From Acidobacteriota bacterium (GTDB taxonomy: Bacteria > Acidobacteriota > Terriglobia > Terriglobales > Acidobacteriaceae): DNA of 55,713 bases. Positions 16,779 to 55,534 of this stretch are shown here, one piece after another. Position 1 is the stretch's first letter; each line of letters begins with the position of its first letter. A model generated the notes under the pieces. It saw nothing but the letters and a program-made list of their open reading frames with translations, made no database searches and was not told the DNA's origin. Location: positions 1 to 55,713 of the forward strand of contig JAJZCY010000001.1 of NCBI GenBank assembly GCA_021828835.1, written 5' to 3'. Made by a program: the position numbers and the translations under genes.

Positions 16779-16868
16779 GCAGGTGGCCCGCTCTTCCCCC
16801 CTATTTCCCAGCCGAACATGCGAGTGCCCCATCCATCGAGCGTATTTTGCTCGATGGGTGGGAACCAC
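16779..16868 (+). mobile_element. Complete head-spacer-hairpin REP-like element
   Basis: GCAGGTGGCCC, 32 nt, GAGTGCCCC, hairpin ATCCATCGAGC...GCTCGATGGGT, GGGAACCAC. Confidence 0.7.
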
Positions 16869-16968
16869 GACCCTCAAAGCGCCGCTAACAGGGAGCAACT
16901 AAGGCCCGTCCCCTGGTGTCGTCGCCAATGCGGAAGTCTCGACCGGGTTGAATCCTCAAAGGCAATCA

Positions 16969-17013
16969 CAGATCCTTCGCTCCGCCTGAGATGCGGCTTC
17001 GCTCAGGAGGACA
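16969..17013 (-). repeat. TGTCATCCTGAGCG...GAAGGATC-type palindromic repeat (degenerate)
   Basis: Minus strand reads TGTCCTCCTGAGCGAAGCCGC...GCGGAGCGAAGGATCTG; family assignment is from recall. Confidence 0.55.
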
Positions 17014-17071
17014 ACTTGCGATCGGCGAGGGGCGGCAAACCTCGCGTGATCTGGCCGCACGCTCTTCGCCC

Positions 17072-17110
17072 AAACGAAAACGGCCCGCGCGCAGAGCATG
17101 CGCGCGGGCC
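17072..17110 (-). terminator. Intrinsic terminator of topA
   Basis: GGCCCGCGCGCA-5 nt-TGCGCGCGGGCC stem followed on the minus strand by GTTTTCGTTT. Confidence 0.8.
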
Positions 17111-17121
17111 CTCCATCCGGC

Positions 17122-19791
17122 TTACGCCGGTTGCAGTTCCTTCTTCTCAGCGACCGGCCCGTGCGTCTCCGCGGTGGGCGGAGGCGGCGCGTCGCCGATG
17201 CGCTTGGAGTAGCTGCACACCACCGCGGGCTGCTCCTCGGCCGCGGCTGCTGCCTTCTTGCCGCGCTTCTTCGGAGCTGTCTCTTCCTCGGCCGCCTTCT
17301 TCTTGTTCGGGCATTCGAGGTAGATGCCGCTCTTCAGCACCTTCTCCACCAGGTACGGGCTCTTGCACTCCGGGCAAGGCTTCGGCACCGGTTTCAGGTT
17401 CGACGTGAAGTCGCACTTGGGATAGTTGGTGCAGCCCCAGAAGACATTCCCGCGCCGCGCCTTGCGTTCGGCGATGTTACCCTCGCCGCACTTGGGGCAC
17501 TTCATGCCTTCGATCAGGTTCTGCTTGATGTACTTGCACTTCGGATAGCCCGAGCAGGAGACGAACTCGCCGTACGCTCCCTGCCGCAGCACCAGCGGCT
17601 TGCCGCACTCCGGGCAGGCTTCGCCGGTGGGCTCCGGCGGCTTCTGCTGCTGCTTCTGGCTGAGCTTCCGGAAGGTCTTGCAGGGAGGATCGGCGTTGTA
17701 GTCCGGGCAGGCCATGAACGGCCCGAACAGCCCGCGCCGCATCACCATCACCTTGCCGCAGTTCTCGCAGTACTCCTCCGTGTCGCCGGCCTCCTGCGCC
17801 TCGGGCGTGTTCAGGTCCGGCTTGGCGGCGATGTTCTCCTTGGTGAAGGTGCAGCTCGTCGGGTCCTTCTTGTTGTAGGCCGAGCAGGCGAAGAAGGTGC
17901 CGAACTTGCCCCACTTCAACACCAGCGGCGAGCCGCACAGCTCGCACTTCTCGTCGGTCACCTGCTCCAGGCGCTTGATGTTTTCCATCTTCTTCTCGGC
18001 AACCTTCAACTCGTCTTCAAAGTAGTTGTAGAAGCCGTTGAGAAGAGTCGTCCACTTCTCCTTGCCCTCTTCGATGTCGTCCAGCTCCTCTTCGAGCCGC
18101 GCCGTGTAGCGGGTGTCGAAGATGTACGGGAAGTTCTTCACCATGAGGTCGCAGACCACCACGCCGATCTCGGTGGGATAGAAGCGGCCGCGCGAACCGC
18201 CGTGCTTCACCACGTACTCGCGGTCCTGGATGGTGTTGATGATCGAAGCGTAGGTCGAAGGCCGACCGATGCCGCGCTCCTCCAGCTCCTTCACCAGCGA
18301 GGCCTCGTTATAGCGCGGAGGCGGCTGCGTGAAGTGCTCCTCCGGCGTGAGCTCGTCCATCGCCAGCGTCTTTACCCCGTCGAGATTGGGAAGCTTGTTG
18401 GCGCTCTCGTCCTCGTCGTCCTTCTTCTCTTCGGAGACTTCGTACACCTTCAGGAAGCCGTCGAAGCGCATCACCGAGCCGCTCACGCGGAAGTCATAGC
18501 TCTTGCCGTTCTTCTTTGATTTCGCCTCGATATTGGCGGTGGTCACGTCGAAGATAGCCGGGACCATTTGCGAAGCTACAAAGCGCTTCCAGATCAGCGT
18601 GTACAGCTTGAGCTGCTCATCGCTCAGGAACTTCGCCATCATCTCGGGCGTGCGCGCGGCGTCGGTGGGGCGGATCGCCTCGTGCGCATCCTGCGCGTCC
18701 TTCTTGCCCTTGTAGCTGTTGGGCTCCTTGGGCAGGTACTTCTCGCCCAGGTTCTTTGCGATCCACTCCCGCGCCGCCACTTTGGCTTCCGGCGCCACGC
18801 GCGGAGAATCGGTACGCATATAAGTGATGAGACCGGTGGTGCCTTCGGAGCCCAGATCGATGCCTTCATACAGCCGCTGCGCCACGCCCATGGTGCGCCG
18901 CACATTGAAGCCCAGCTTGTTGGCCGCATCGCGCTGCAATTGGCTGGTGATGAAGGGCGCCAGGGGACGCCGCTGCTGCTCGCGCGCCTGCACGCCCGTC
19001 AGCCGCCAGTCCGCGTCCTGAAGCGCCGCCACCACCTCGTCCATGGCCGCTTTGCCGGGCAGCGCGTTGGCAACGAACGTGTCTTTGCCGTCTTTGTCCT
19101 TGCCGGTGGGCACGCGGGCCGGCTCGCCGCCGATGCCGATGAACTTCGCCTTGAACTTCTTGTCGCCCTGCCGCTCCGGATGAAGCAGCGCTTCAAGGGT
19201 CCAGTACTCCACCGGCTGAAACGCGCGGATCTCGCGCTCGCGCTCCACAATCAGCCGCAGCGCCACCGTCTGCACGCGTCCCGCAGAAAGCCCCCGGCGC
19301 ACCTTGTCCCACAGCAGCGGCGAGATTTGGTAGCCCACCAGGCGATCGAGCACCCGCCGCGTCTGCTGCGCATCCACCAGGTTCTGATCGATGTCGCGGG
19401 CGTGCTGAAACGCGTCCTGAACCGCCTTCTTGGTGATCTCGTTGAAGGTCACACGGCGGATCTTTTTCTTTTCCTTGGCGTTGGTTCCGAGTTGCAGCGC
19501 CAGATGATAGGCGATGGCCTCGCCTTCGCGGTCCGGGTCAGGCGCCAGGTAGATCTCGTCGGACTTGGCGGCCAGCTTCTTGAGCTGCTCCACCACCTTT
19601 TCTTTGCCCGGAGAGACGATGAGCTGCGGTTCGAACGTGCGCTTCTTCAGCTCCACGCCGATATCGTTTTTGGGCAGATCCATGATGTGCCCGACCGAGG
19701 CGCGCACCTCAAACCCCTTGCCCAGATACTTCTCGATCGTCTTGGCTTTGGCGGGGGACTCGACGATCACCAATGATTTGCTCGTTGCCAT
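17122..19791 (-). CDS. topA: DNA topoisomerase I with C-terminal zinc ribbons
   Basis: LVIVESPAKAK, D.DREGE, SAGRVQ, GLITYMRTDS, GIGRPSTYA, four C4 zinc-ribbon repeats. Confidence 0.98.
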   Translation of the reverse strand: MATSKSLVIVESPAKAKTIEKYLGKGFEVRASVGHIMDLPKNDIGVELKKRTFEPQLIVSPGKEKVVEQLKKLAAKSDEIYLAPDPDREGEAIAYHLALQLGTNAKEKKKIRRVTFNEITKKAVQDAFQHARDIDQNLVDAQQTRRVLDRLVGYQISPLLWDKVRRGLSAGRVQTVALRLIVEREREIRAFQPVEYWTLEALLHPERQGDKKFKAKFIGIGGEPARVPTGKDKDGKDTFVANALPGKAAMDEVVAALQDADWRLTGVQAREQQRRPLAPFITSQLQRDAANKLGFNVRRTMGVAQRLYEGIDLGSEGTTGLITYMRTDSPRVAPEAKVAAREWIAKNLGEKYLPKEPNSYKGKKDAQDAHEAIRPTDAARTPEMMAKFLSDEQLKLYTLIWKRFVASQMVPAIFDVTTANIEAKSKKNGKSYDFRVSGSVMRFDGFLKVYEVSEEKKDDEDESANKLPNLDGVKTLAMDELTPEEHFTQPPPRYNEASLVKELEERGIGRPSTYASIINTIQDREYVVKHGGSRGRFYPTEIGVVVCDLMVKNFPYIFDTRYTARLEEELDDIEEGKEKWTTLLNGFYNYFEDELKVAEKKMENIKRLEQVTDEKCELCGSPLVLKWGKFGTFFACSAYNKKDPTSCTFTKENIAAKPDLNTPEAQEAGDTEEYCENCGKVMVMRRGLFGPFMACPDYNADPPCKTFRKLSQKQQQKPPEPTGEACPECGKPLVLRQGAYGEFVSCSGYPKCKYIKQNLIEGMKCPKCGEGNIAERKARRGNVFWGCTNYPKCDFTSNLKPVPKPCPECKSPYLVEKVLKSGIYLECPNKKKAAEEETAPKKRGKKAAAAAEEQPAVVCSYSKRIGDAPPPPTAETHGPVAEKKELQPA

Positions 19792-20157
19792 TGCTTTAAA
19801 AACCAGTTTCCTCTCTGATGCCGCCGCCTGGCTGCGGGGATTCATTTTCCATCCGCCAGGCTGGCAGTCCATTGGACACGCGTGCACGCTTTCGGTCGCA
19901 AATCCGGGCCCGATTTACCGCGATCTAGAATTTTTCCCGTAAAGGTTGCACCGTAACATGGAATACCACATCCTTTCCACTCGCGTCGGTGCCCTAGGTC
20001 TCTCGACTGCGGCGTTCCGCCCTCTCCTGCCCCGCCGCAAACCCCCTGCAAGATATTGATGATTCAGCGGAAGCAACGCTTCAACCACCCTTCGGCGCGA
20101 TTTCAGAGGATGAAAGTGAAAACGTCGGCCACAAAGCGGCTCCGCCCGCCCCCAGTC

Positions 20158-21339
20158 TCACATCGTGCGCACGTAGTGCTTTCCCGGCAAGGCACGTATC
20201 CGGCCCGCAATTTCCAGTTCAAAGAGCGCGGTGAAAACTTCCGATGAGGTGAGCTGCGTCTCCAGAAGCTCGAGCAGTTCATCGAGCTGCCGGCTGTCGT
20301 CGCTTCGCAAAGCCTCCAGTACCAAGGCCTCTTCCGGTCGCAGCACAGGATCAGGCAATAAGGATGCCTGGGCCTCCGATTTGGATGCAGACGGCGCTTC
20401 GGCCTCCAGCTCAAAACGCACCTGCGAGGGCAGCTCCTCCCACACGTCCTCCCACGTCGCCACCAGCTTGGCGCCCTGCTTGATCAGCGTGTTCGGCGTC
20501 CACGAGCCCTTGCTGGTGACATTCCCCGGCACCGCAAATAGATCGCGGTTCTGCTCGGCGGCGCAGCGCGCCGTCACTCGCGTGCCGGAGTTCTCCGCCG
20601 CCTCCACCACCAGCACCGCAATCGAGAGCCCGCTCAGGATACGGTTGCGCCGGGGAAAGTTCTGCGGTGCCGGAAACGTCCCCATCGGCACCTCGCTGAC
20701 GATCGCGCCTCCAGTCGCCAGGATCTCTCCGGCCAGCTTCTTGTTCTCCTTGGGATAGACCACGTCGATGCCCGTGCCCCACACCGCCACCGTGGGCATG
20801 CGCGCCGCCAGCGCGCCCTTGTGTGCGCACGTGTCAATGCCTCGCGCCATGCCGCTCACAATCAGCAACCGCCGCGCGGCAAGATCGCGCGCCAACAGTT
20901 CCGCGATGCCCGTGCCGTAGGGCGTGGGGTGGCGCGTTCCCACCACCGCGATCGCCGGTCGCGCCAGCAGCCCGGCGTTCCCCTGCACCCACAGTACCGG
21001 CGGCGGATCATAGATTTCTTTCAGCCGCTCCGGATATTCCGGGCACCTGAAGCTCACGATCGTGGCACCCTGCGCGGTAACGCGCTGCCACTCCGCTTCG
21101 GCCGCCTGCCGCGCTCGGCCTTCAAAGACGAACTGCCCGGCGCCGCTGGGAAAGTTCAGCGCTTCCAGCTCGGTCAGGGGCAGCGCCAGCAGCCGCGCGG
21201 CGGCTCCCACCTGCTGCACTGCATCCACAATGCGCTTCGGTCCCAATCCCGGTGTCAGCGCCAGCGCCAGCCATGCCAGACGCTCTTCGCCGATTTCCGG
21301 CGCGCGCGCCGCTTCCACCCTCGACGCCTCCACTACCAT
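20158..21339 (-). CDS. dprA: DNA-processing protein DprA
   Basis: YPERL.EIYDPPP, AVVGTR, VSGMARGID, FPRRNRILSGLS, VVEAAENSG; upstream of topA. Confidence 0.95.
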   Translation of the reverse strand: MVVEASRVEAARAPEIGEERLAWLALALTPGLGPKRIVDAVQQVGAAARLLALPLTELEALNFPSGAGQFVFEGRARQAAEAEWQRVTAQGATIVSFRCPEYPERLKEIYDPPPVLWVQGNAGLLARPAIAVVGTRHPTPYGTGIAELLARDLAARRLLIVSGMARGIDTCAHKGALAARMPTVAVWGTGIDVVYPKENKKLAGEILATGGAIVSEVPMGTFPAPQNFPRRNRILSGLSIAVLVVEAAENSGTRVTARCAAEQNRDLFAVPGNVTSKGSWTPNTLIKQGAKLVATWEDVWEELPSQVRFELEAEAPSASKSEAQASLLPDPVLRPEEALVLEALRSDDSRQLDELLELLETQLTSSEVFTALFELEIAGRIRALPGKHYVRTM

Positions 21340-27032: not shown

Positions 27033-27102
27033 ACACATATTGTAGGGACCCCGGAAGCGGGGAACAAGGAACCGGCGCACCAAGAGTTGCGGAAGCCGCC
27101 CT

Positions 27103-27175
27103 GTTCCCTCGTTCCCTCGTTCCCTCGTTCTCTCATTCCCTTGTTCCCTAGTTCCCTCGTTTCCCTCATTCCCTG
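27103..27175. repeat. Degenerate tandem 8-mer (GTTCCCTC), about 9 units
   Basis: gttccctc x3, gttctctc, attccctt, gttcccta, gttccctc, gtttccctc, attccctg in the tlpA/kdsD divergent region. Confidence 0.9.
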
Positions 27176-33992: not shown

Positions 33993-34041
33993 GTAGCGCC
34001 GGTCTCCTGACCGGCAGGAGTGAGGGTCTCCAGACCCTCAC
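33993..34041 (+). repeat. GTAG/GGAG-footed REP pair
   Basis: GTAG-CGCCGGTC-TCCT-GACCGGC then GGAG-TGAGGGTC-TCCA-GACCCTCAC; first unit nearly identical to 46498. Confidence 0.8.
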
Positions 34042-34045
34042 CGTC

Positions 34046-34078: not shown

Positions 34079-34164
34079 GCAGGTGGCCCGGTCAAATTCA
34101 TCGTTTCATGGTCGCATGACTTAGAGTGCCCAAGCCGCGCCGTTTGCGGCTTGGGTGGGAAAGC
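34079..34164 (+). mobile_element. Head-spacer-hairpin REP-like element
   Basis: GCAGGTGGCCC, 34 nt, GAGTG-CCCAAGCCGC...GCGGCTTGGG-TGGGAAAGC. Confidence 0.7.
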
Positions 34165-34338
34165 AGCGCCCTTCGCCCTTCTTCAATCCCACTCCCTCCG
34201 GCAGTTGGTTTTCCCGCCGCCGGGCAGAGCGGCCGATTCCGAGCGCGTGGACTTGTGAAAGCTGATTTGCGCGAAGCATACGCGACGATCGAATGGGGTC
34301 AAAGTTGCTTTTTTCTGAAATGTGAGCCGCATCACGCC

Positions 34339-34377
34339 GGATGCCCCAGGTCTCGATTCTGAGACCTGGGAGAGCAC
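34339..34377 (+). repeat. Hairpin module of the REP-like family
   Basis: GGATGCCCCAGGTCTCGATTCTGAGACCTGGGAGAGCAC; core identical to 47718. Confidence 0.85.
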
Positions 34378-38200: not shown

Positions 38201-40274
38201 CCATCTCCTCGTCGAGCTCGCCCACCCGCACCGTCTTGCCCTCGGTGTAGGCGAGAAAAACGCCATAGAGGCCGCGGTCGGGAATCGTGCCCGCATTCAG
38301 GATCGCCAGCCGCGCCGCGCCCTCGCGCGCCGTGACCACGTTGCGAATGCGGTCCCAGGTCAGCCGCGGCCGCAGCTCCCCAAACTCATCCGAGGGATAT
38401 CGGCCGCTCAACAGATCGAGCACGCCTTCGAAGGCCGAACGCATCAACCCGCCAAACGGCGCCGCCCCGCGCACCAGATCGAACAGGTAATCGACTGAGA
38501 CTTCAGCAGGAGCGAACTCAGCGCTGTTAGCGGAGTTATAGAAGCCGGGTGCCCCAGGTCCCCCGCGTTTGGGGACCTGGGAAACCACAGCCGTGGATGC
38601 GCGATCTCTCGTCTCTGGTCTATTGTCCTTAGGCGCTGTCTTCTTGTTCCCCCGTTCCCACGTTGCCTTGCCCCCTGCCGCGGCGACAATCGCCACCAGC
38701 TGCTGCGCCAACACGTCCAGCGGATTGCGCGGGTAACGCGTCGACTCGATGTGGCCCTCGTGCATGGCGCGCGTCACCGCCGCGCAGGCCACCAGATCGG
38801 CGCGGTACTTCGGAAACAAAATCCCCTCGCTCACCGCGTCTACACTGTGCCCCGCGCGGCCGATGCGCTGCATGCCGCTGGCCACAGAAGGCGGCGACTC
38901 GATCTGAATCACCAGGTCCACCGCGCCCATATCGATGCCCAGCTCCAGCGTGGAAGTGGCGCACAGCGCGCGAATCTGCCCGGCCTTCAACTGCTCCTCG
39001 ATGACCGCCCGCTGCGCCGCCGCCAGCGAGCCGTGGTGTGCCCGCGCAATCGGCTCACCGGCCAGTTCGTTGAGAGCGCCCGCCAACCGCTCCGCGATCT
39101 GCCGCGAATTCACGAAGAGAATCGTCGAGTTGCGCGCGCGAATGATCTCCAGCAGCCGCGGATGAATCGCATTCCAGATGGAGACGCGCTTGGGCGCTTG
39201 CGAGGCCGGTCCCGACGGAATCTCCTCCAGTTCGCCCAGCCGCGCCATGTCCTCCACCGGCACCTCGATGTGCAGCTTGAGCTGCTTGCGCGCCGAGGCA
39301 TTGACGATGGTCACGGGCCGGTAACGCAGCGCCTCCGCCGATTGAACTGGAACCGAAGAATCAGGAACCGGGGAAGCAATGGAATGAGCGGCCATTGAAG
39401 CATCCGGCCCATCGCTCAGTTTCTCGTCGAGCAACGCCACCAGATCGGGCGCATCCGATCCCTGATCCCTGACCCCTGATCCCTGTTCTCTCGTTCCCTC
39501 GTTCTCTCGTTCCCTTGTTCCCTGTACTTCCACCCCGCCCAGGAACCGCGCCACCTCTTCGAGCGGCCGCTGCGTGGCCGAGAGCCCGATGCGTTGCAGC
39601 GGCTTCCCCGTGAGTGCCTGGAGCCGCTCCAGCGTCAGAGAAAGATGCGCACCGCGCTTGGTAGGCACCAGCGCATGGATTTCGTCGATGATGACGGTAT
39701 CCACGGTGCGCAGCGCCTCCGCCGCCTGCGAAGTCAGGATCAGGTAGAGCGACTCCGGCGTGGTGATCAGAATCTCCGCCGGCTGCCGGGCAAAGCGCGC
39801 CCGCTCACGCTGCGGCGTGTCCCCGGTGCGCACCGCGATCTCCGGCTCGTGAAACGGCACCCCCATGCGCCGCGCCATGTTGGCGATCCCCGCCAGCGGC
39901 GAGCGCAGGTTCCGCTCCACGTCCACCGCCAGCGCCTTCAGCGGCGAGACGTAGACGATGCGGCAGCCCTTGCTCTCTTTGTCCCTGTGTCCCTTTGTCC
40001 CTTTGTCCCTGGCTTCTTGTTCCCTCGTTCTCTTGTTCCCTTGTTCGCTGTTGTGCAGCATCAGCCGGTTCAGGCACCACAGAAACGCGGTCAGCGTCTT
40101 GCCCGTCCCGGTCGGCGCCAGGATCAGCGCATTCTCCCCGCGCGCGATCACCGGCCAGCCCATGCGCTGCGGAGCGGTGGGGGCGTCAAAGACGGCGCGA
40201 AACCACGCCGCCGTCACCGGGTGAAACGCGGCAAAGGGATCCAAGGGTTCCGAAGGGTGGGAAGGCCGGCTCAT
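35280..40274 (-). CDS. lhr: Large Lhr helicase with C-terminal glycosylase-like/HTH domains
   Basis: APTGTGKT, SPLKALA.D, TTPESL, DEIH, SAT, HHGS, TSTLELGID, QRIGRAGH, GTIPDRG; 1664 aa with several low-complexity inserts. Confidence 0.95.
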   Translation of the reverse strand: MSRPSHPSEPLDPFAAFHPVTAAWFRAVFDAPTAPQRMGWPVIARGENALILAPTGTGKTLTAFLWCLNRLMLHNSEQGNKRTREQEARDKGTKGHRDKESKGCRIVYVSPLKALAVDVERNLRSPLAGIANMARRMGVPFHEPEIAVRTGDTPQRERARFARQPAEILITTPESLYLILTSQAAEALRTVDTVIIDEIHALVPTKRGAHLSLTLERLQALTGKPLQRIGLSATQRPLEEVARFLGGVEVQGTRERENEGTREQGSGVRDQGSDAPDLVALLDEKLSDGPDASMAAHSIASPVPDSSVPVQSAEALRYRPVTIVNASARKQLKLHIEVPVEDMARLGELEEIPSGPASQAPKRVSIWNAIHPRLLEIIRARNSTILFVNSRQIAERLAGALNELAGEPIARAHHGSLAAAQRAVIEEQLKAGQIRALCATSTLELGIDMGAVDLVIQIESPPSVASGMQRIGRAGHSVDAVSEGILFPKYRADLVACAAVTRAMHEGHIESTRYPRNPLDVLAQQLVAIVAAAGGKATWERGNKKTAPKDNRPETRDRASTAVVSQVPKRGGPGAPGFYNSANSAEFAPAEVSVDYLFDLVRGAAPFGGLMRSAFEGVLDLLSGRYPSDEFGELRPRLTWDRIRNVVTAREGAARLAILNAGTIPDRGLYGVFLAYTEGKTVRVGELDEEMVFESHPGETFILGASTWRIVEITHDRVTVTPAPGEPGKMPFWKGDGPGRPLEFGRRIGAMVRELRALPAPAALTRLVAEHDLDPGAAENLLRFLADQAEATGQIPDDRTIVIERTRDELGDWRVCVLTPFGSRIHIPWAMAVSARIRAAGGPEVEALWGDDGFVLRFPDTDEPPDSDWILVESAEAMQLVLRQLGSTALFAGRFREAAGRALLLPRRRADQRSPLWQLRKKSYDLLSVASRYPSFPLLLEAYRECLRDVFDMSSLIEILKEIEERKLRVHVVDTRKPSPFASSLLFSYVANFVYDGDAPLAERRAQALTIDQEQLRELLGEADLRELLDPNAIAEVEEAAQSLADNLRARSADGVHDLLLKLGDLSQAELARRVVDAAVLESLPRLIRARRVLELRVAGEKRYVAAEDAARYRDALGIPLPPGLAVALLEPVAHPVLELVRRYARTHGPFTVREAAERFGLDSEAVENVLQLLAREGRVLEGGFLPGGIHREWCDAEILRQIRRKSLARLRREVEPVEQHTLARFLTHWQGILTPRRGGPAHLDALLDAIDNLQGAPLPASLLESAILPARIADYAPAGLDTLIAAGEVAWAGVEPIGERDGRIALFLADKLPLLAQRRPQTEPLSEREEKILDVLRSNGANFFDPLHQAVGGGYPGETIEALWSLVWRGLVSNDSLHALRAYIARPESARTPRRAQTGMVFRSRRTTPPNAQGRWSALHAADSRSTTEASHALAMQLLSRYGVLLREMVAAENVPGGFSAVYDVLKALEESGRIRRGYFVAGLGATQFALPAAVDLLRQLRTAPSAEKPEFVSLAASDPANPYGSVLRWPDLPVAEEDVESAPRVLTRAAYAEVVLRNGQLVAWLRRGNPHVLVFLPAEEPERSQVAAGLAHFLCSRGQERMRAHPHEGVLITTVNGQPVAANCMARFLMDAGFHPGPLGMQLRRIPLPMGHSRDAHAGDVQ
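38547..38588 (+). repeat. REP-like hairpin inside the lhr coding sequence
   Basis: GGGTGCCCCAGGTCCCCCGCGTTTGGGGACCTGGGAAACCAC versus intergenic 47841 GGGTGCCCCAGGTCCCCCGCTTCTGGGGACCTGGGAGACCAC. Confidence 0.9.
39457..39524. repeat. (GATCCCT)x4 plus (GTTCYCTC)x5 degenerate tandem repeats inside lhr
   Basis: Read directly; encodes part of QGTRERENEGTREQGSGVRDQGS. Confidence 0.85.
39979..40048. repeat. (TTGTCCCT)x4 plus (TTGTTCCC)x4 degenerate tandem repeats inside lhr
   Basis: Read directly; encodes part of SEQGNKRTREQEARDKGTKGHRDK. Confidence 0.85.
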
Positions 40275-41839: not shown

Positions 41840-41896
41840 GCTCTCCGTGCCAATGTGCGGATAGGAGATCGACAGTTCAGCCGTCTGCTGCCCGAT

Positions 41897-41926
41897 CTCT
41901 GTTCCCTGTTCTCTGTTCTCTCTGTT
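41897..41926. repeat. (CYCTGTT) heptamer repeats between ispD and ispF
   Basis: ctctgtt ccctgtt ctctgtt ct ctctgtt. Confidence 0.7.
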
Positions 41927-41927
41927 C

Positions 41928-42629
41928 TTACTTCGCCCGCTGCTTCAGAAAGAACTCCGCCAGCTCCAGATCCCCGGGCTGCGTAATCTTCAGATTAACC
42001 GGAGATCCGGGCACCACGTGCACCGGCTGCCCGGCCCGCTCCACCAGCGACGCCTCGTCGGTGCCGATAAACCCATCCGCCTCCGCATCGGCGAAGGCGC
42101 TGCGCAGCAAACCCACCCGAAAGCCCTGCGGCGTCTGCGCCTGCACAATGAACTCGCGGGGAATCGTCGCCGTGATGATGGCGCCGTGGGCCGTGCGCTC
42201 CACCTGCTTGATGGTGTCCACCGCGGGCAGCCCCACAATCGCCGCCCCGTGTTCAGCCACCGCATCAATGGTGCGCTCGATGGTGGCCGTGTCGATCAGC
42301 GGCCGCACCGCGTCGTGCACCAGCACAAGATCGTCGGGGTCGGCCGGCAGCTTGGCAAGCGCATGAGCCACCGACTCCTGCCGCTTCTCGCCGCCTTCCA
42401 CCACATGCACGCGGCTGCCAAAACCGTGCTCGGCCACCTGCGCTTCCACGCGGGCGATCTCCGGCTTGCGCACCGCTACGTAGATCTCGCTGACGCGGGG
42501 CGCCCCGGCAAAGGCGCGCAGGGAGTGGATCAGGATCGGGGCTCCGTCCAACTCCAAAAACTGCTTGGGCTGGGGTCCGGCCATCCGCGTGCCCAGGCCC
42601 GCGGCCGGAAGAATCGCAAAAACTCGCAT
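41928..42629 (-). CDS. ispD: 2-C-methyl-D-erythritol 4-phosphate cytidylyltransferase
   Basis: PAAG.G.RM...PKQFL, GG..RQESV, VHDA.RP, AQTPQ.F, TDEAS, NLKIT.P.DL. Confidence 0.96.
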   Translation of the reverse strand: MRVFAILPAAGLGTRMAGPQPKQFLELDGAPILIHSLRAFAGAPRVSEIYVAVRKPEIARVEAQVAEHGFGSRVHVVEGGEKRQESVAHALAKLPADPDDLVLVHDAVRPLIDTATIERTIDAVAEHGAAIVGLPAVDTIKQVERTAHGAIITATIPREFIVQAQTPQGFRVGLLRSAFADAEADGFIGTDEASLVERAGQPVHVVPGSPVNLKITQPGDLELAEFFLKQRAK

Positions 42630-46497: not shown

Positions 46498-46545
46498 GTA
46501 GCGCCGGTCTCCAGACCGGCTGTAGGGGCGGCGTCCTCGCCGCCC
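46498..46545 (+). repeat. GTAG-footed REP pair
   Basis: GTAG-CGCCGGTC-TCCA-GACCGGC then GTAG-GGGCGGCG-TCCT-CGCCGCCC. Confidence 0.8.
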
Positions 46546-47587: not shown

Positions 47588-48529
47588 GAGACCTGGGAGA
47601 CCAACGCTCTACTGGCGCGCAAGCGCCCCAGAGCCTGTCGAAAGCGCACGCACAAAAAGTTCTGTGTCAGGGCACGGCTTCAGCCGTGCCGCAACCGCCC
47701 GCCCAACCACCACCTCTGGGTGCCCCAGGTCTCGATTCTGAGACCTGGGAAAGCTCCAACCTCTCGGGGCAGGTGGCCCGCTCATCGGTCCCAAAGGCGG
47801 GTGGCCCGGGTCTGAGGATGCGCCCCCAACCACCACCTCTGGGTGCCCCAGGTCCCCCGCTTCTGGGGACCTGGGAGACCACGACTCTCTCCCCGGCACA
47901 GCCGTAATCCAGGCAGGTGGCCCGGCCATGAATTAGCCGAAAACGCCGAGTGCCCCATCCATTCACAGTTTCATCGTGAATGGGTGGGAGACCACGAACC
48001 TCTGTCAGGTGGGCGGATGGCGCACCTAGCTTTTGGGCGGGTGGCGCACCCTAAGTGTTTGCAATCTCGATAGGCCCACAACTGGGGGGGGCAGGTGGCC
48101 CAGTCATCGGTCCCAAAGCCGGCACCCATCCGCTCAGGGCTGTGTCCCGTTCCTCGCGTTTTTGCGATGAGCGGGCGATGGAGCCTCGTGCCTCCCACTC
48201 AAAACGCAAAGAACGCGTTTTGAATGGGCCACGGACGATCATGCCAGTATGAAGTATGAAGGACTTGAGCAGGCCACCTGCCACTCAGGGCTGTGTCCCG
48301 TTCCTCGCGTTTTTGCGATGAGCGGGCGATGGAGTCTCGTGCCTCCCACTCAAAACGCAAAGAACGCGTTTTGAATGGGCCACGGACGATCATGCCAGTA
48401 TGAAGCGTGAAGGACTTGAGCAGGCCACCTGCCCCTTTTTCTTTCCTCCAGGCCCGCGGGTGCCCCAGGTCCCCCGCTTCTGGGGACCTGGGAGACCACG
48501 ACTCTCTCCCCGGCACAGCCGTAATCCAG
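47588..48529. mobile_element. Nested array of REP-like head/hairpin elements, including a 151-bp tandem duplication and an identical 72-bp repeat
   Basis: Heads at 47769, 47797, 47913, 48091, variants at 48013 and 48037, reversed heads ending 48281 and 48432; hairpins at 47718, 47841, 47948, 48140, 48458; 47841-47912 equals 48458-48529; 48131-48281 nearly equals 48282-48432. Confidence 0.85.
47666..47691 (+). repeat. GTCAG-GGCACGGC-TTCA-GCCGTGCC palindromic repeat (separate family)
   Basis: Perfect 8-bp stem with a TTCA loop. Confidence 0.65.
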
Positions 48530-48639
48530 CAAGGCCAACAAAACTGAGGCTCGACAAGTGACTCGGCCTGTTGGCAACATCTCTTGCTTGATTGGATATG
48601 GACTGCGGAGATTACTTCATTGGTCTACACTGACAGTCA

Positions 48640-49773
48640 ATGATTGGAATCGATTCAACTATTTGCATCTACTGCAAGAATCATGGCTTTTCGAAAGAGC
48701 ATGTCGCCCCGTTTTCACTAGGCGGGAACTGCACGATCAAGTGCGTCTGCAAGGATTGCAACGGAAAACTGTCATCGGTCGATCAATCGCTTGCAGAGAA
48801 CTCGCCCGTCGCGCTTTCGAAGGTCGGCATGACACCTACGGCTGCGTTTGGAACCCAGTTGGGAACGATTGCCACCATGCGAGATCAAAGAGGGTTCGAT
48901 TTGGGTGTCCGGATCGGCAACCAGATGACTGTGGAGGTCCGGCCGCAAATCTTCCTTCGCGGGAACCAGTTGAGCATCAGTTGCCCCGACCGACAAGGTA
49001 TCCAAAAACTAGTTCGATATATAGACGATCAAATCAGAAAAGGAAGTTTGGCGGACGTTCATCAAAGGATCACACCTGATACTATTGCTCCCCGCTTCAT
49101 GATGCACAGGAGCGATGCCGCCGTTGTCGACGCGGCCTCTTCGGAAGAGGCCAGCAAACTTCTTGCGGTTATCGAAAAGAACTGGCCGGATGTGAAAACG
49201 ACGCTCGAAAAGCCAGACGCCGGAGAAGTGGTCAAGCAGGCTACCCCAAGTGTTCTCATCAAAATGGTGATGAAGCCAAATGAAGAGTACCGGGGTGTGG
49301 CGAAGATCGCTCTTGAGACAACGGCACTCCTGCTGGGCCCAGAATTCGTCCTGCGCGACACGTTAGATCCCATTCGTGAATATATCTTGGGTGACGTCCG
49401 TCTGCCAGTGATCGATGGTGATACCCCTGACCAGTTGGCTATTGACGCTCGGTTCGTAGAAAGAGTTCCAACCGAGAACTCATTTGACTTTACTGACCAG
49501 CACGGAGTGATCCTGTTCCATGAACCTCAGCATGGGCTTGCAGCGCTCGTGGTGCTTTATGGAATGCATCATTATAAGGTTAGGCTGGCGCCGCCGATGG
49601 ATCGAAGCTCTTGGGTGCGGCATTATGAATTTAGTTACACCAAGGATGGTCATAGAGAGCTGAGTGAACTAGACTTCGCGCGGCGGGCTTTGGAACGATT
49701 TCCTCACCTTCTCAAGATCGATCCAGGCATAGCCACAAAGATGTTGGAGGCTCTCAAAGGGGAAACTCGGTGA
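48640..49773 (+). CDS. HNH-type endonuclease (HNH_5-like N-terminus, uncharacterised C-terminus)
   Basis: CIYC...EHVAPFSLGG...VCKDCNGKLS zinc/HNH motif; clearly lower GC than the flanks (26/60 at 48661-48720). Confidence 0.75.
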   Translation: MIGIDSTICIYCKNHGFSKEHVAPFSLGGNCTIKCVCKDCNGKLSSVDQSLAENSPVALSKVGMTPTAAFGTQLGTIATMRDQRGFDLGVRIGNQMTVEVRPQIFLRGNQLSISCPDRQGIQKLVRYIDDQIRKGSLADVHQRITPDTIAPRFMMHRSDAAVVDAASSEEASKLLAVIEKNWPDVKTTLEKPDAGEVVKQATPSVLIKMVMKPNEEYRGVAKIALETTALLLGPEFVLRDTLDPIREYILGDVRLPVIDGDTPDQLAIDARFVERVPTENSFDFTDQHGVILFHEPQHGLAALVVLYGMHHYKVRLAPPMDRSSWVRHYEFSYTKDGHRELSELDFARRALERFPHLLKIDPGIATKMLEALKGETR

Positions 49774-50206
49774 GCGCATCATCGCTGAGGCACTCATCGA
49801 CTCGCGATCCGGCCCCCTAAGCCCCCTCACCACCCCATCCCCGCCCAAACTGCCCCCACCCCGTCCGTCAACCCCTCCCTCCACACATCCCCACTATCCT
49901 CCGCAAATTCAGCGCCTTCCCCGCGCCTCCCCGTTGCAGGCAATTTCCCCCAGTCGCTCTATCCTGATCGCGCAATCCAGTCTCCGGCAGAGCTGCGCAT
50001 TGCATCCGCCCGGCCCTGGCTGCCCCGTCGCAGGACCGTCCGATCTTAAAGTCTTCCGAACAATAGACTTGGCGCGGAAGTCCACCGCCCATCTCACGGA
50101 AAACAAGGGACTTTCGGACTTTGGGCAGCCCCCGTGGGGGGGGCCGGGGGGGGGCTGCCTCTGCCGCTACTGCCTCTGCTGAAAGGAAGAAATCCGATGT
50201 CCGCCA

Positions 50207-50268
50207 GCAGGTGGCCCGCTCATCGGTCCCAAAGCCGGCACCCATCCACTCAGGGCTGTGCCCCGTCC
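50207..50268 (+). mobile_element. Head-spacer-foot element with truncated hairpin
   Basis: Near-identical to 48091-48152; first 28 nt identical to 47769-47796. Confidence 0.8.
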
Positions 50269-51875: not shown

Positions 51876-52784
51876 ATGGTTTCTTCCCCGCCATCGAGAC
51901 GATCCACTTTAACCCGCCGCCAGTTTTTCAAGGCCAGCGTTACTTCTGTCTACGGGCTGGCGCTCTACGGTTGCGTCATCGATCGTCACTGGCTGCAGAT
52001 CGTCCACAGCGATGTCTACCTTCCCGGCCTGCCGCCGGAGTTCGAGGGCTATCGCGTCGCCCAGCTCAGCGACATTCACATCGACGAGTTCACCGAGCCC
52101 TTCTTCGTTCGCGAAGCGGTCGACCGCATCAATGCCCTCAATCCCGATGCCGTCTTCCTCACCGGCGATTTTGTCAGCCATCAACTGGAGACTCTGAAGT
52201 TTGCCGAGGGCTCCGCCTGGCAGTGCGCCAACATCCTCACCGGGCTCAAGTGCCGCCGCCGCTATGCCATCTTCGGCAACCATGACGCCATGGTCGGCCT
52301 GCCCCTGGTGGGCGAGGCGCTTCGAGACAACGGCATCACCGTCCTGCAAAACAGCTATTTACCCATCCAGCGCGGCGGCGCCCGCGTGTGGCTCGCCGGC
52401 CTGGACGACGCCGTGATGGGATCGCCCGACCCCGACAAGGCGATTCCCCCCTCGATTCGCAATCGGCCCAACGAGCCGCTGATCCTGCTCTGCCACGAGC
52501 CCGATTACTCGGATACGGTTCTGCGCCATCCCGCCGGTCAGGCTGTCGATCTCATCCTCAGCGGCCATACCCACGGCGGCCAGATCCGGATTCCGTTCAT
52601 GAAGCCGTTCCATCTGCCCCCGCTCGGCCGCAAGTACGTCCACGGCTGGTTCAAGCTCGGCAAAGCGCAGCTTTACGTCAATCGCGGACTGGGCACGGTC
52701 GGCGTTCCGGTGCGCTTCGACTGCCCGCCGGAGATCACGCTGTTTACGCTCCGCCGCCAGCAGCCGGGGACGGAGAAGATCTAA
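51876..52784 (+). CDS. Calcineurin-like metallophosphoesterase (YkuE/YaeI type)
   Basis: DIH, GDFV, GNHD, HEPD, GHTHGGQ, VNRGLG; TRRQFFK N-terminus. Confidence 0.9.
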   Translation: MVSSPPSRRSTLTRRQFFKASVTSVYGLALYGCVIDRHWLQIVHSDVYLPGLPPEFEGYRVAQLSDIHIDEFTEPFFVREAVDRINALNPDAVFLTGDFVSHQLETLKFAEGSAWQCANILTGLKCRRRYAIFGNHDAMVGLPLVGEALRDNGITVLQNSYLPIQRGGARVWLAGLDDAVMGSPDPDKAIPPSIRNRPNEPLILLCHEPDYSDTVLRHPAGQAVDLILSGHTHGGQIRIPFMKPFHLPPLGRKYVHGWFKLGKAQLYVNRGLGTVGVPVRFDCPPEITLFTLRRQQPGTEKI

Positions 52785-52848
52785 ATTCCGTCGGGCTATG
52801 CCCGTTCCGCCTCTGCTTCTCGCATCCAACCCCTCGGGTAAGGCCCGG

Positions 52849-54252
52849 ATGTCTTTTCGTAGAATTCGTACTCTCTCTCTGGTGCTCCTGTTTCTGATCG
52901 GCAGCCGCTGGGCTTGCGCCTACGCGGTGCTCACCCACGAAGAGCTCATCGATCTCACCTGGCGGGACTCCATCGTTCCCCTGCTGCTCGCACGCTATCC
53001 GCACCTCACGGCGGCCCAGTTGCGCGAGGCGCGCGCCTACGCCTACGGCGGCTGCGTAATTCAAGACATCGGCTATTACCCCAGGGGCGACCGCTTCTTC
53101 TCCAACCTGACCCACTACGTGCGCTCCGGCGATTTCGTCGTCAATCTGTTTCGCGATGCCAAGACCCCCGATGAGCTGGCCTTCGCCGTGGGCGCGCTCT
53201 CCCATTACATCGGCGACTCCATCGGACATCCCGAGGCCACCAACATCGCCGTTCCGCTCGCGTTTCCTATGCTGAAGGAGCGGTATGGCCCGGTGGTCAA
53301 CTACGCGGAAGGCGAGCACCAGCACGTGCAGGTTGAGTTCGCCTTCGACATCGACCAGCTCGCGCATCAGCGCCTGGCGCCGCTGCGCTTCGAGCGCCGC
53401 GCGGGCTTCAAGGTGCCGGTGCATCAGCTTGCGCTGGCGTTCTATCAGACCTATGGCATCAGCGACTTCGTCGGCATTCACGAGCACTTCATCAAGGTGC
53501 GCGCCTATCGCTATGCCGTGCGCACGTTCATTCCCCATATTGCGTTCGCGGTGACCCTGCTGCATCGCCACGATGAGCCGCCCGATCCCGACACGCCCGA
53601 TACCCGCATCATTGAGAAGGAAGTCGCGCGGGTGGCCGCGCAAGACCACTGGAGCGCCTACCGCCACAAGCCCGGCTTTGAAACCCACGTGCTGGCCGTC
53701 TTGATCTTCATCCTGCCCAAAGTCGGTCCGCTGGCGCTGGTCAACATCAAGGGCCCCACCGAGCAGACCGAGGCCGATTACATGCACAGCCTGGTGCTCT
53801 CGCTGCACGCGCTGCGTGTGAGCCTGCATCGCTTTACGCCGCCGCGCCCCGGCGCGGATCCGCCGAATCGGAAGGTTGCCCCCGCTGCGCCGCTCCCCGT
53901 GGACACCCGCCGCGAGCGGCTACAGGGCAAAATCGATCCCCGGCATCCGCTGCCCAACCGCGATCTGGACACCGGCCACGTGGTGCAGCCCGGCGGCTAT
54001 CCGCTCACCGACAAGACCTACGCCGAACTGCTGCGCCATCTCGCCCGGCATCCACATCACCCCGTCCCACCGGGCATCGTGCGCAACATCGAGGCCTACT
54101 ACAGCGATCCCAACGCGCCGATTCACACCAAACTCAATCCCAAGCGCTGGGCCCAGGTGCAGAAGGATCTGAAGACCCTGGCGGCGATGCCCACCAGCGC
54201 CGAGCCGCAGCCCTATCCGACCTTTCCGGACAACGCCGCCGACGACGAGTAG
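52849..54252 (+). CDS. Zinc-dependent phospholipase C family protein
   Basis: Signal peptide then YAVLTHE, AYGG..IQD.GYYP, NLTHY.RSG, GALSHY..D..GH, H..VEF.FD. Confidence 0.78.
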   Translation: MSFRRIRTLSLVLLFLIGSRWACAYAVLTHEELIDLTWRDSIVPLLLARYPHLTAAQLREARAYAYGGCVIQDIGYYPRGDRFFSNLTHYVRSGDFVVNLFRDAKTPDELAFAVGALSHYIGDSIGHPEATNIAVPLAFPMLKERYGPVVNYAEGEHQHVQVEFAFDIDQLAHQRLAPLRFERRAGFKVPVHQLALAFYQTYGISDFVGIHEHFIKVRAYRYAVRTFIPHIAFAVTLLHRHDEPPDPDTPDTRIIEKEVARVAAQDHWSAYRHKPGFETHVLAVLIFILPKVGPLALVNIKGPTEQTEADYMHSLVLSLHALRVSLHRFTPPRPGADPPNRKVAPAAPLPVDTRRERLQGKIDPRHPLPNRDLDTGHVVQPGGYPLTDKTYAELLRHLARHPHHPVPPGIVRNIEAYYSDPNAPIHTKLNPKRWAQVQKDLKTLAAMPTSAEPQPYPTFPDNAADDE

Positions 54253-54293
54253 CTGGCCGGCTTCCGAGATTTCAGTGGAAAGGGGAGGATCTG

Positions 54294-54334
54294 TGGCGTC
54301 CCAGGTCCCCGCATCCGGAGACCTGGAAAACCAC
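54294..54334 (+). repeat. Degenerate hairpin module of the REP-like family
   Basis: GGCGTCCCAGGTCCCCGCATCCGGAGACCTGGAAAACCAC between convergent genes. Confidence 0.7.
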
Positions 54335-54352
54335 GTCTTGCGGGGATTACGA

Positions 54353-55090
54353 CTAGAACGAGTTGCTCTGCCGCCCTTCCCCATCGCCGGGGCGGGGAAC
54401 TACGGCCAGCGAGCGCTGCCCGGTGGCGCGCAGCGGCTGCGGCTGGGCCGTGAGCGTCTGGTGCATGGTGACGATGATCGCTCCCGCGGGCTTGCGCCCT
54501 ACGCACTGGTAGGAGTGCGGCGTGCCGGCATCGAAGTAGGCCGAGTCGCCCGCTTCCAGAATGCTTTCCTGCTCGGCGTGACGCAGCGAAAGCTCGCCGT
54601 GCAGCACGTACAGGAACTCGAAGCCGGGATGGATATGCGCCTTCGGTTCCGTGCTGTTCTCGAGCGGCACGAACTCCGCGTAGTACGGGTCCATGTGCCG
54701 GTCGGGAACCATGTAGCCCAGGCTTTCGAAGTAGTAGGTCGGCGGGTCCACGCCGGTCTGCGGCATGCGCACCCGTTCGGCGCGCCGGTGCACCCGGAAG
54801 ATCGGGGCCGGCTCGGAATCGAAGAAATAAGAAAGGTCTTTCGAAAAGACCATGGCGATGCGCGCCAGGTTACGCAGCGTGGGAACCACGCGGCCGGTTT
54901 CCAGTTGGGACAGAAAACTTGCGGACAGCCCCGTGTGCTTGCCCAGTTCCACGAGCCCCATCGACTTCTTGAGCCGGAGCCGGCGGATGCGCTCGCCAAT
55001 CCGCTTTTCCTCGATAACCCGCTCAGCCGTCTCGGGATCCGCCTGGGTTTTCTGCACTTCCTCGCTCTTGATCTCCAGCGGTTCGCCCAT
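54353..55090 (-). CDS. XRE-family HTH plus cupin transcriptional regulator
   Basis: IG.RIR.LR......L..L...TGLS.SFLSQLE.G...P; cupin H.HPGFEFLYVL.G, GDS.YFDA..PH. Confidence 0.9.
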   Translation of the reverse strand: MGEPLEIKSEEVQKTQADPETAERVIEEKRIGERIRRLRLKKSMGLVELGKHTGLSASFLSQLETGRVVPTLRNLARIAMVFSKDLSYFFDSEPAPIFRVHRRAERVRMPQTGVDPPTYYFESLGYMVPDRHMDPYYAEFVPLENSTEPKAHIHPGFEFLYVLHGELSLRHAEQESILEAGDSAYFDAGTPHSYQCVGRKPAGAIIVTMHQTLTAQPQPLRATGQRSLAVVPRPGDGEGRQSNSF

Positions 55091-55300
55091 CGTTCCTCCC
55101 GTTCTAAAACATAGGATGCGCCGAGCCGGTAGGTTTGTCCAGATGAACAAAAGTTGTTGTCAGGTAAAAACCTGATGCGAGGGCTCCGCAGAACCTGATG
55201 CCGCTGTCGGTGCTGCCGATCGCTCCAGGGAGAAGGCGGCTCAAAGTCCAGTGGCTGGGGCACACGGCCGGCCCACCCAAGCTGTCCAGCCACAGACGAG

Positions 55301-55347
55301 GGGTGCCCCATCCAAGCCGCGCTCTTTGCGGCTTGGGTGGGAACCAC
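55301..55347 (+). repeat. Hairpin module of the REP-like family
   Basis: GGGTGCCCCATCCAAGCCGC-GCTCTTT-GCGGCTTGGGTGGGAACCAC; stem shared with 34124. Confidence 0.85.
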
Positions 55348-55449
55348 TGAACTGAACCCGCCCAGAACAATGCGTCATCCAGGCCTTGCTCGCCGTTTAC
55401 GCATCATCGCCGAGTTACTCGCCGACACGGACAGCTCCTCAAAGATCGG

Positions 55450-55534
55450 GCCGGTGGCCCGGTTCTCCGAGGATTCTGACTGAGCCGCCGCCTTTGGGTG
55501 CCCCGGATCTCGATTTTGAGACCCGGGAGACCAC
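55450..55534 (+). mobile_element. Complete head-spacer-hairpin REP-like element
   Basis: GCCGGTGGCCC, 35 nt, GGGTGCCCCGGATCTCGATTTTGAGACCCGGGAGACCAC. Confidence 0.75.

What the first reader, a model, noticed from the sequence alone, without database searches (positions are those of the whole stretch)
16779..55534. Candidate undescribed one-ended mobile system: fixed head motif, variable spacer, footed hairpin
Seen: the same architecture recurs with mostly unrelated spacers and different stem sequences. Head GC(A/G/C)GGTGGCC(C), spacer, foot G(G/A)GTGCCCC (or variant), hairpin, GGGA(G/A)ACCAC-like tail. Copies with spacer length: 16779 (32 nt), 34079 (34), 47797 (33), 47913 (24), 48091 (38), 50207 (38, hairpin lost), 55450 (35), plus reversed copies ending 48281 and 48432. 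Head and foot cores differ by one base (GGTGGCCC vs GGTGCCCC). Where an uninterrupted counterpart exists, the break is at the head's outer edge, nearly always 3' of a G; I see no defined second end or target duplication. Established: IS200/IS605 TnpA and REP-associated tyrosine transposases (HUH Y1) bind a hairpin and use bases at its foot to select a cleavage site some distance away; IS91/ISCR elements can transpose one-ended and carry adjacent DNA. Inference: the head is the cut/join point of a trans-acting HUH enzyme and the other end is open, so flanking DNA travels with it. I cannot tell from the sequence whether this family is already described.
Basis: partly seen in the sequence, partly recalled or inferred. 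Interest (0 to 1): 0.85.

Follow-up and report, generated by a model that had tools for sequence, protein, structure and literature searches.

The report
Gene-shuffling hairpin transposon of Acidobacteria
The repeats are the ends of a small transposon of Acidobacteriaceae whose single-strand enzyme, from a family thought to be tamed and immobile, likely cuts at a fixed 11-base head and joins it to G-C steps in other DNA, which would explain the duplications, deletions and foreign-looking genes that start exactly at these heads.

Summary
Real: all nine units and seven spacer lengths check out (10 pattern matches vs 0.02 shuffled). They are ends of an element encoding a REP-associated tyrosine transposase (RAYT); this genome's RAYT starts with a 96% copy of unit 47913. 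In relatives the gene has a head-spacer-hairpin at BOTH ends, heads outward (30 of 70 close homologues; 62 have at least one), so 'no second end' is wrong. Each head does act alone: the DNA it joins was cut at G^C (42 of 61 junctions, control 6 of 86), as the published guide rule predicts for a GTGC foot; products are tandem duplications and deletions starting at the head, and near-identical copies sit in unrelated flanks. DNA between back-to-back heads is low-GC (33 of 36) and swapped between strains; the window's HNH gene is one case. Hairpins and enzyme clade are in print (Quentin 2018 Table S1; Di Nocera 2013 TIRYT); I found no text on the head, G^C rule, mobility or cargo, but could not see Di Nocera's Figure 9. 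This scan noted a similar system on another genome (e1-9944593). No biochemistry; capture is inferred.

The parts
16779..16862 (+). Head (16779-16789) - 32-nt spacer - GTGC foot (16824) - 13-bp hairpin; sits 7 nt after the stop of a Phd/PIN toxin-antitoxin pair
16158..16771 (+). Phd/YefM antitoxin and PIN toxin genes, 56% GC; not beside topA in 28 of 28 relatives' topA loci; an 81% homologue lies elsewhere, without a head, in G161. Candidate cargo
34079..34159 (+). Head - 34-nt spacer - foot - hairpin: the right (3') end type of the autonomous element
34124..34228 (-). Remnant of the last ~35 codons of a RAYT gene (66% to P0001 residues 158-192), still attached to its end
47769..47796 (+). Head and start of spacer, cut off at a G^C step by the head at 47797 (uninterrupted copies at 48091 and 50207)
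47797..47875 (+). Head - 33-nt spacer - foot - hairpin
47913..47988 (+). Head - 24-nt spacer - foot - hairpin; 96% identical over 105 nt to the left end of this genome's RAYT element (G000:C332); joined at a G^C step whose uninterrupted form is at 48529
48037..48052 (+). Variant head (GCGGGTGGCGCACCC type) whose own hairpin is gone
48091..48281 (.). Two-headed non-autonomous unit: head 48091(+), hairpin 48142-48175, hairpin 48194-48232(-), head 48281(-); heads face outward
48282..48432 (-). 151-nt tandem duplicate that starts at the reversed head 48432 and ends at the reversed head 48281
48458..48529 (+). 72-nt exact duplicate of 47841-47912 (headless hairpin and tail), continuing with G^C
48640..49773 (+). 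HNH endonuclease gene (Pfam HNH_5), 52% GC against 64% for the window, between back-to-back heads 48432(-) and 50207(+); homologue found in 1 of 400 family genomes, there in a headless island. Candidate cargo
49845..50205 (+). Upstream region and first three codons of a small gene whose intact paralogue (91%) is on G000:C317; broken exactly at the head 50207, where the paralogue reads G^C
50207..50264 (+). Head - 38-nt spacer - foot, hairpin truncated; 210 nt upstream of ruvA
55450..55527 (+). Head - 35-nt spacer - foot - hairpin
55303..55341 (+). Footed hairpin with a decayed head; other headless hairpins of the family lie at 6951-6981(-), 34341-34370, 38549-38581 and 47720-47749

Best explanation
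The units are the ends of a mobile element of Acidobacteriaceae that encodes a REP-associated tyrosine (HUH Y1) transposase between two inverted head-spacer-hairpin ends, and the enzyme likely nicks single-stranded DNA just 5' of the head's GC and joins the head to a 3'-G released at a G^C step elsewhere. Shown: the architecture, the enzyme, the G^C preference at junctions, breakpoints at the head, identical elements in unrelated flanks, tandem duplications and one deletion that start at a head. Inferred: (1) the enzyme binds the hairpin and reads its GTGC foot as guide, which gives G^C by the rule measured for other RAYTs; (2) the ~18-nt head, a GTGG-footed copy of the stem base, makes one cut site fixed, unlike E. 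coli TnpA_REP, which cuts any CT; (3) the tyrosine stays linked to the head's 5' end, and a second cut at any G^C downstream closes a circle or adds a tandem copy (rolling-circle type), while a cut upstream deletes the DNA in between; (4) because both ends work this way, on opposite strands and independently, the gene moves, carries DNA from beyond its far end, and trims that DNA from both sides, leaving short foreign segments between back-to-back heads. The window holds only non-autonomous ends and remnants, served in trans by the RAYT on contig C332.
For: Enzyme: P0001 passes the NCBIfam RAYT cut-off (108.7 vs 80 bits) and fails IS200 (45.6 vs 55); best solved match is E. coli TnpA_REP 4ER8; HUH and catalytic Tyr invariant in 6 of 6 aligned; its left end matches window unit 47913. 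Ends: among loci chosen by the protein alone, 30 of 70 close homologues have a head on both sides and 62 of 70 on at least one; 33 two-headed elements are 685-830 nt with unrelated flanks. Junctions: uninterrupted counterpart continues with GC in 42 of 61, GG 6, CC 5; controls 6 of 86 GC; in two C^C cases the base before the head is C, so that base comes from the target. GTAG gives C^T and mutated guides retarget predictably (PMC8266576, PMC3479197, passages). Mobility: same 683-nt element, 99.85%, at two loci of G068; 99.1% copies in different flanks (L260, L281). Independent ends: L299 versus L305 (100% element) differ by a deletion from a G^C to the head and by wholly different DNA before the outer head; L314 versus L317 share the left locus and 99% element but differ right after the right head. 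Products: of 78 mapped junctions 42 are tandem duplications, 33 have no continuation within 4 kb, 3 unclear, 0 clean two-ended insertions. Cargo: segments between back-to-back heads are 8.5 points lower in GC than outer flanks (33 of 36 lower); segments facing hairpin tails are not.
Against: No cleavage was measured. The donor's own cut is G^G, which the simple two-base rule for GTGC does not give (a TGCC or GGCC register would give both G^C and G^G; not resolved). No empty site was found for any two-headed element. Junction mapping favours local duplications because their counterpart lies in the same locus. 74 of 95 footed hairpins in this genome, and a whole RAYT sub-clade including this genome's P0002, have no head, so the head is not needed by every enzyme of the family. 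A paired test over all headed units found no GC difference between the two sides (60 of 119 lower upstream, p 0.38). The fit of cargo to whole genes beats random G^C fragments (19 of 36 vs 2.3) and loose hairpin pairs (16 of 30 vs 17 of 92) but not strictly defined headless pairs (25 of 42 vs 15 of 37, p 0.12). No relative of P0001 on 72,556 plasmids and one distant hit in viral contigs. P0001's own 3' end is broken by an IS110-type insertion, so its activity is unknown. Many loci are kin, so p-values overstate.
Confidence: 0.75

Rival explanations
1. Ordinary domesticated REP/REPIN family: heads are decayed tandem copies of the hairpin's 5' arm, and the repeats merely pile up in the gaps of variable, low-GC islands that arrived by other means.
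For: The head resembles the foot plus stem base; most hairpins in this genome are headless; REPs are extragenic, and whole-gene fit is not significantly better than for headless pairs; full hairpins with a GTGG foot exist; earlier notes e1-5047053 and e1-9503385 reached this reading for other genomes.
Against: The head's 5' GC(A/G)G part has no counterpart in the foot and is 95-99% conserved while the bases before it are random; similarity to the stem stops sharply after 7 nt; breakpoints fall on the head's first base; junctions are G^C; low GC follows the head-facing orientation, not mere nearness; the gene itself is found as recent identical copies.
Confidence: 0.1
2. A host-kept, integron-like capture platform: the RAYT adds single-gene cassettes at resident heads, and the arrays are its purpose rather than a by-product of transposition.
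For: G1004 has five ~295-nt two-headed units alternating with four single low-GC genes (L422); cargo includes immunity, Rhs-associated, Abi, SIR2, HNH and many unknown proteins; strain pairs differ in cargo at one site; gene stops lie within 12 nt of a head in 39 of 414 units against 14-22 at shifted places.
Against: The gene is multi-copy, often broken and in ever-different flanks; heads insert into their own transposase genes and into host genes; no fixed attI-like site; no outward sigma-70 promoter in 480 units; the same cassette was not seen at two loci.
Confidence: 0.1
3. A terminal-inverted-repeat MITE/IS moved as a two-ended unit by cut-and-paste, by this enzyme or by a DDE transposase reading the 12-nt heads.
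For: The heads form 12-nt inverted termini; identical head-to-head copies occur at two loci; L158 could be a two-headed insertion with a ~21-nt target duplication.
Against: No fixed target duplication in 33 elements; 0 of 78 junctions are clean two-ended insertions; left and right flanks change separately; the only gene inside is the Y1 enzyme.
Confidence: 0.05

Closest known systems
REPtron: TnpA_REP (RAYT) with REP/BIME, E. coli (PDB 4ER8; PMC3333891, PMC3479197, PMC8266576: passages read)
   Same: Y1 HUH enzyme above the RAYT cut-off; gene between inverted footed hairpins; two-base cut site matching the last two guide bases; tandem amplification and sequestering of flanking genes are proposed there too (PMC3333891 model section).
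   Different: [quoted passage not shown]
Acidobacterial TIRYT/TIRtron group (PMC3733652, section 16 read) and the acidobacterial 'subclass 2.2/2.1' rows of Table S1 in PMC6006769
   Same: Same phylum; Table S1 lists GTGCCCC-footed hairpins of the same stem types for Acidobacterium, Granulicella, Terriglobus and Koribacter strain codes (strain names read from the codes, my recall). Very probably the same enzyme clade.
   Different: Neither text nor table gives a head, a cut site, mobility or cargo. Figure 9 and Additional files 4-5 of PMC3733652, which print the TIR sequences, were not available and may show the head. Protein identity to the named TIRYTs was not tested.
IS200/IS605 family (IS608, ISDra2)
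   Same: Fixed left cut site some distance 5' of a footed hairpin; base 5' of the cut comes from the target; no target duplication.
   Different: Below the IS200 cut-off; ends are inverted copies on opposite strands, not a left and a right end on one strand; 1-2 base target, not 4-5; no defined right cut.
IS91/ISCR and Helitron one-ended rolling-circle transposition (recalled; also named in PMC3333891)
   Same: One fixed end, open far end, adjacent DNA carried, tandem copies.
   Different: Enzyme is a 170-200 aa Y1 RAYT, not a Y2 or ISCR transposase; two equivalent fixed ends.
Integron gene-cassette arrays (recalled)
   Same: Rows of short, mostly unknown, low-GC genes separated by hairpin-forming repeats.
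   Different: No tyrosine recombinase, no attC RYYYAAC/GTTRRRY cores seen in the units, no fixed attI or promoter found; repeats are transposon ends.

Membership tests
RAYT / REPtron | Y1 HUH protein of the RAYT family | tested here: met
   NF047646 108.7 bits vs cut-off 80; 4ER8 best solved match; HUH, WQ and YxHxNP motifs invariant
RAYT / REPtron | Gene flanked by inverted footed hairpins that are also dispersed in the genome | tested here: met
   95 footed hairpins in G000
RAYT / REPtron | Canonical GT[AG]G foot | tested here: not met
   GTGC in 98% of 223 units; GTGG is in the head instead
RAYT / REPtron | Single-copy, immobile, vertically inherited gene | tested here: not met
   up to 11 matches a genome; 99.85% copies at two loci; unrelated flanks in 33 elements
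RAYT / REPtron | Dinucleotide cleavage set by guide bases 3-4 | tested here: inconclusive
   junctions G^C 42 of 61 fit GTGC; donor G^G does not fit simply; no biochemistry
TIRYT / TIRtron (acidobacterial group) | Y1 gene flanked by long terminal inverted repeats unrelated to GTAG REPs | tested here: met
   head-spacer-hairpin ends inverted on both sides
TIRYT / TIRtron (acidobacterial group) | Sequence membership with the named proteins and TIRs of the paper | not testable with these tools
   Figure 9 not held; alignment file is an unreadable .doc
IS200/IS605 | TnpA of IS200 type | tested here: not met
   NF033573 45.6 bits vs cut-off 55
IS200/IS605 | Distinct left and right ends on one strand, precise two-ended insertion 3' of a 4-5 nt target | tested here: not met
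   ends are inverted copies; bases 5' of the G are random; 0 of 78 clean two-ended insertions
IS91/ISCR | One-ended events with a fixed start and variable end | tested here: met
   42 tandem duplications from head to a downstream G; deletion L299/L305
IS91/ISCR | IS91/ISCR-type transposase | tested here: not met
   only RAYT and weak IS200 models match in NCBIfam
Integron | Integrase plus attI, attC sites and cassette promoter | tested here: not met
   only gene inside the element is the RAYT; no Rfam match in the window; no outward sigma-70 promoter
Integron | Same cassette excised and reinserted as a unit | tested here: inconclusive
   cargo differs between strains at one site, but no cassette was seen at two sites; HNH and vapBC homologues elsewhere are headless

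The most novel reading that the evidence does not exclude
A third route to gene-cassette arrays: an undomesticated RAYT transposon whose head-marked ends ligate foreign single-stranded DNA at G^C, trim it to gene size and stack immunity, defence and orphan genes in Acidobacteriaceae without any integrase; it would also be a living intermediate between IS200/IS605 and domesticated REPtrons, with a cut site that can be named to the base.
Probability: 0.35. Interest if true: 0.85.

Novelty: new variant of a known kind. Interest (0 to 1): 0.62.

Why it matters
How REPs spread is an open question because E. coli-type RAYTs cut any CT and have not been caught moving. Here the genome record gives a base-exact donor end, a predicted target (G^C) that obeys the guide rule, and recent identical copies, so RAYT transposition becomes directly testable with one 193-aa enzyme and an 80-nt oligonucleotide. 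If cargo capture holds, a common soil and peat family builds its accessory genome with an enzyme class thought to be tamed.

Tried and rejected
Rfam and ARAGORN: nothing in the window. Head 10-mer alone: not over-represented. Low GC 5' of every head: rejected by a paired test, p 0.38-0.95; only the back-to-back class holds. Longest-frame orientation after the right head: 21 sense, 24 antisense of 45, so no orientation rule from that test. Whole-gene fit as proof of cassettes: not significant against strict headless pairs. Outward promoter or hybrid -35/-10 suggested by e1-9944593: not found, 3 outward vs 2 inward in 480 units; none in the window island. Mini-hairpin inside the head: no compensatory changes seen, and the GCGC variant head still marks an exact breakpoint; dropped. 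Fixed target duplication: none in 33 elements. Empty sites: relatives are at most 86% alike in genes, so intergenic DNA does not align. Sequencing runs: only assembled contigs, which break at the hairpins; one contig of run X5 joins 48094 to 50211, which would be loss of the HNH segment, but the two heads are 93% alike over 60 nt, so it may equally be an allele of the 48091 copy; not counted. Plasmids: no match. Viral contigs: one distant, headless locus. Literature searches gave no paper on the head, a G^C rule or RAYT cargo arrays; one search was swamped by unrelated papers. No structure or complex prediction was run.

Full report
1. Observation. Every head and spacer length given is in the sequence. 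The pattern head-N20-45-foot is found 10 times against 0.017 in 300 shuffles. In the whole genome (3.9 Mb, 334 contigs, 88% complete) 21 of 95 footed hairpins have a head 18-75 nt upstream against a 2.0% chance rate; the head 10-mer alone is not enriched. In 120 genomes of the genus a looser pattern hits 119 (G000 20 matches against 4 for the backwards control); in 15 genomes picked for high counts a stricter pattern gave 290 matches against 8. Across the phylum it is confined to the window's family (14 of 24 genomes; elsewhere single hits at control level).

2. The enzyme. The genome has two full-length Y1 genes. Both pass the NCBIfam RAYT cut-off and fail IS200; the best solved match is E. 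coli TnpA_REP. P0001 (contig C332) begins 60 nt after a unit that is 96% identical over 105 nt to window unit 47913; window unit 34079 still carries the last codons of such a gene; contig C92 has an internally deleted copy between two outward-facing heads. P0002 is flanked by headless hairpins and falls in a headless sub-clade.

3. Two ends. In loci chosen by the protein alone, 30 of 70 homologues at 65% identity or more have a head on both sides, 32 on one (often at a contig end), 8 on none; among 35 more distant ones 3, 16 and 16. The 33 two-headed elements are 685-830 nt, with unrelated flanks and no fixed target duplication. Over 223 units the head is GGC[GA]GGTGGCCC at 95-99% a position (partly forced by the search pattern), bases before it are random, and head-to-foot distances cluster at 36-38 and 43-53 nt. 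The 7 nt after the head match the stem of the unit's own hairpin (identity 0.48-0.90 a position against 0.30-0.51 shuffled) and then fall to chance; stem type follows the enzyme tree (midpoint-rooted, every third close homologue kept, no support values read). So head = GTGG foot plus stem base; hairpin = GTGC foot plus full stem.

4. The junction. Where the DNA before a head has an uninterrupted counterpart, that counterpart goes on with GC in 42 of 61 cases, GG 6, CC 5, other 8; at shifted control places GC in 6 of 86 (an earlier local test gave 16 of 19 against 1 of 30). PMC3479197 and PMC8266576 (passages) state that guide base 4 sets the base 5' of the cut and base 3 the base 3' of it, that mutated guides retarget the Marinomonas enzyme, and that the attacking 3' base must match. 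GTGC therefore predicts G^C and an attacking G. The donor's G^G cut needs something more; the head is my candidate (inference). In the window the rule holds at 47797, 47913 and, with one later change, 50207.

5. What the ends do. Among 67 alignment ends between copies at 93% identity or more, 17 fall on a shared head (16 within 1 nt), 4 have a head just outside in one copy, 4 a head in one copy only, 42 are other ends, many in housekeeping alignments. G068 holds one 683-nt head-to-head element at two loci, 99.85% alike. L299 and L305 share a 100% element; L299 lacks 120 nt from a G^C to the inner head, and the DNA before the outer head is unrelated. L314 and L317 share the left locus and a 99% element, then differ from the right head on, each variable stretch ending at another head. 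Of 78 mapped junctions 42 are duplications running from a head to a downstream G (32-1,896 nt), 33 have no continuation within 4 kb, 3 are unclear, none is a clean two-ended insertion (the method favours duplications; a few 'duplications' are dispersed repeats, and L158 may be a two-headed insertion with a ~21-nt duplication). This is the rolling-circle amplification scheme proposed for BIMEs in PMC3333891 (passages), with one end fixed.

6. Cargo. Segments between back-to-back heads average 53% GC against 61% outside (27 of 28 lower). With more loci and strict hairpins: head-head -8.5 points (33 of 36 lower), head-foot -7.0 (18 of 20), foot-foot -4.9 (4 of 6), head-tail about -3 (23 of 30), tail-facing classes 0. 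Their genes mostly lack a Pfam family (23 of 40; 27 of 40; some ORFs may be shadows); named ones include Imm26, Imm32, Rap1a, barstar, Sel1, Abi_alpha with an AbiP2 reverse transcriptase, SIR2, FRG, HNH; 5 of 26 hit PADLOC. G1004 has five two-headed units alternating with four single genes. Against: no GC asymmetry over all units, and gene fit is not significantly better than for strict headless pairs (25 of 42 vs 15 of 37, p 0.12), though far better than random G^C fragments (19 of 36 vs 2.3). In the window the HNH gene lies between heads 48432(-) and 50207(+) and was found in 1 of 400 family genomes, headless; the Phd/PIN pair ends 7 nt before head 16779 and is absent beside topA in 28 of 28 relatives; none of 28 relatives has a head before ruvA, and in 14 a conserved gene ends 6-7 nt before it. 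Capture is thus the best reading but remains inferred; preferred insertion into newly arrived DNA is not excluded. Loci include kin, so the p-values overstate.

7. What is known. PMC6006769 (passages, section 12, rows of Table S1) lists GTGCCCC-footed hairpins for six acidobacterial strain codes; the strings CAGGTGG and CGGGTGG give no acidobacterial row. PMC3733652 (passages, section 16) names an acidobacterial TIRYT group flanked by TIRs; its Figure 9 and Additional files 4-5 could not be seen and may print the head. PMC5581495 (passages) and section 29 of PMC8266576 describe RAYTs as single-copy and housekeeping-like; PMC3333891 says REPtrons do not appear to move as a unit but that BIMEs may sequester neighbouring genes; PMC3337134 (one passage) leaves tandem REPINs unexplained. 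Searches found nothing on the head, G^C or RAYT cargo arrays; subscription journals and ISfinder were not searchable. IS91/ISCR and integron features are from recall.

8. Verdict. A real feature; a member of the RAYT enzyme family that works like a one-ended rolling-circle transposon at each of two ends. Known parts: enzyme class and hairpins. New as far as I could search: the fixed head, the G^C rule, recent movement of the gene, and foreign DNA between heads. New variant of a known kind; interest 0.62; best explanation 0.75.

Noticed in passing
G000:C332, C92, C212 (L001:1-127): One IS110-type element end abuts the foot of these hairpins at three loci, breaking P0001's right end; a like-starting ORF in L341 is an IS110 transposase by Pfam. 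An IS110 that targets this REP family.
   Followed up: partly
L326:2450-2470 (G053:C2:303414-303504): Two heads fused back to back with nothing between, next to a RAYT gene: a possible fully trimmed or empty cargo site.
   Followed up: no
L422:2500-8010 (G1004:C16): Regular array of five ~295-nt two-headed units with an HNH, a HEAT-repeat, an unknown and a DUF7003 gene between them; one gene's stop abuts a stacked, truncated head.
   Followed up: partly
L328, L330, L340, L350, L351, L305, L426: Rhs-like fragments and immunity-type genes recur beside heads; Pfam confirmed Rhs repeats only in L350.
   Followed up: partly
L078:326-2839: Abi_alpha gene and an AbiP2-type reverse transcriptase fill the whole stretch between back-to-back heads.
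   Followed up: no
window 49845-50205 and G000:C317: A repeated ~360-nt upstream region with G and C runs precedes a small Cys/His-rich gene in this genome; intact on C317, cut after three codons here.
   Followed up: partly
window 27088-27167, 39470-39525, 39988-40059, 41885-41928: Intergenic runs of 7-8 nt pyrimidine-rich tandem units.
   Followed up: no
window 33993-34042, 46498-46536, 47669-47691, 55629-55713: Other hairpin repeat families, one with a GTAG foot, share the same gaps; their enzymes were not sought.
   Followed up: no
L014:2121-3513: The right head of a RAYT element abuts the inside of an NRPS-like gene (carrier-domain motif recalled, not scanned).
   Followed up: no
G000:C25:5257-5282: A head has joined at G^C inside the end of a multi-copy IS-like repeat present on at least four other contigs.
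   Followed up: partly
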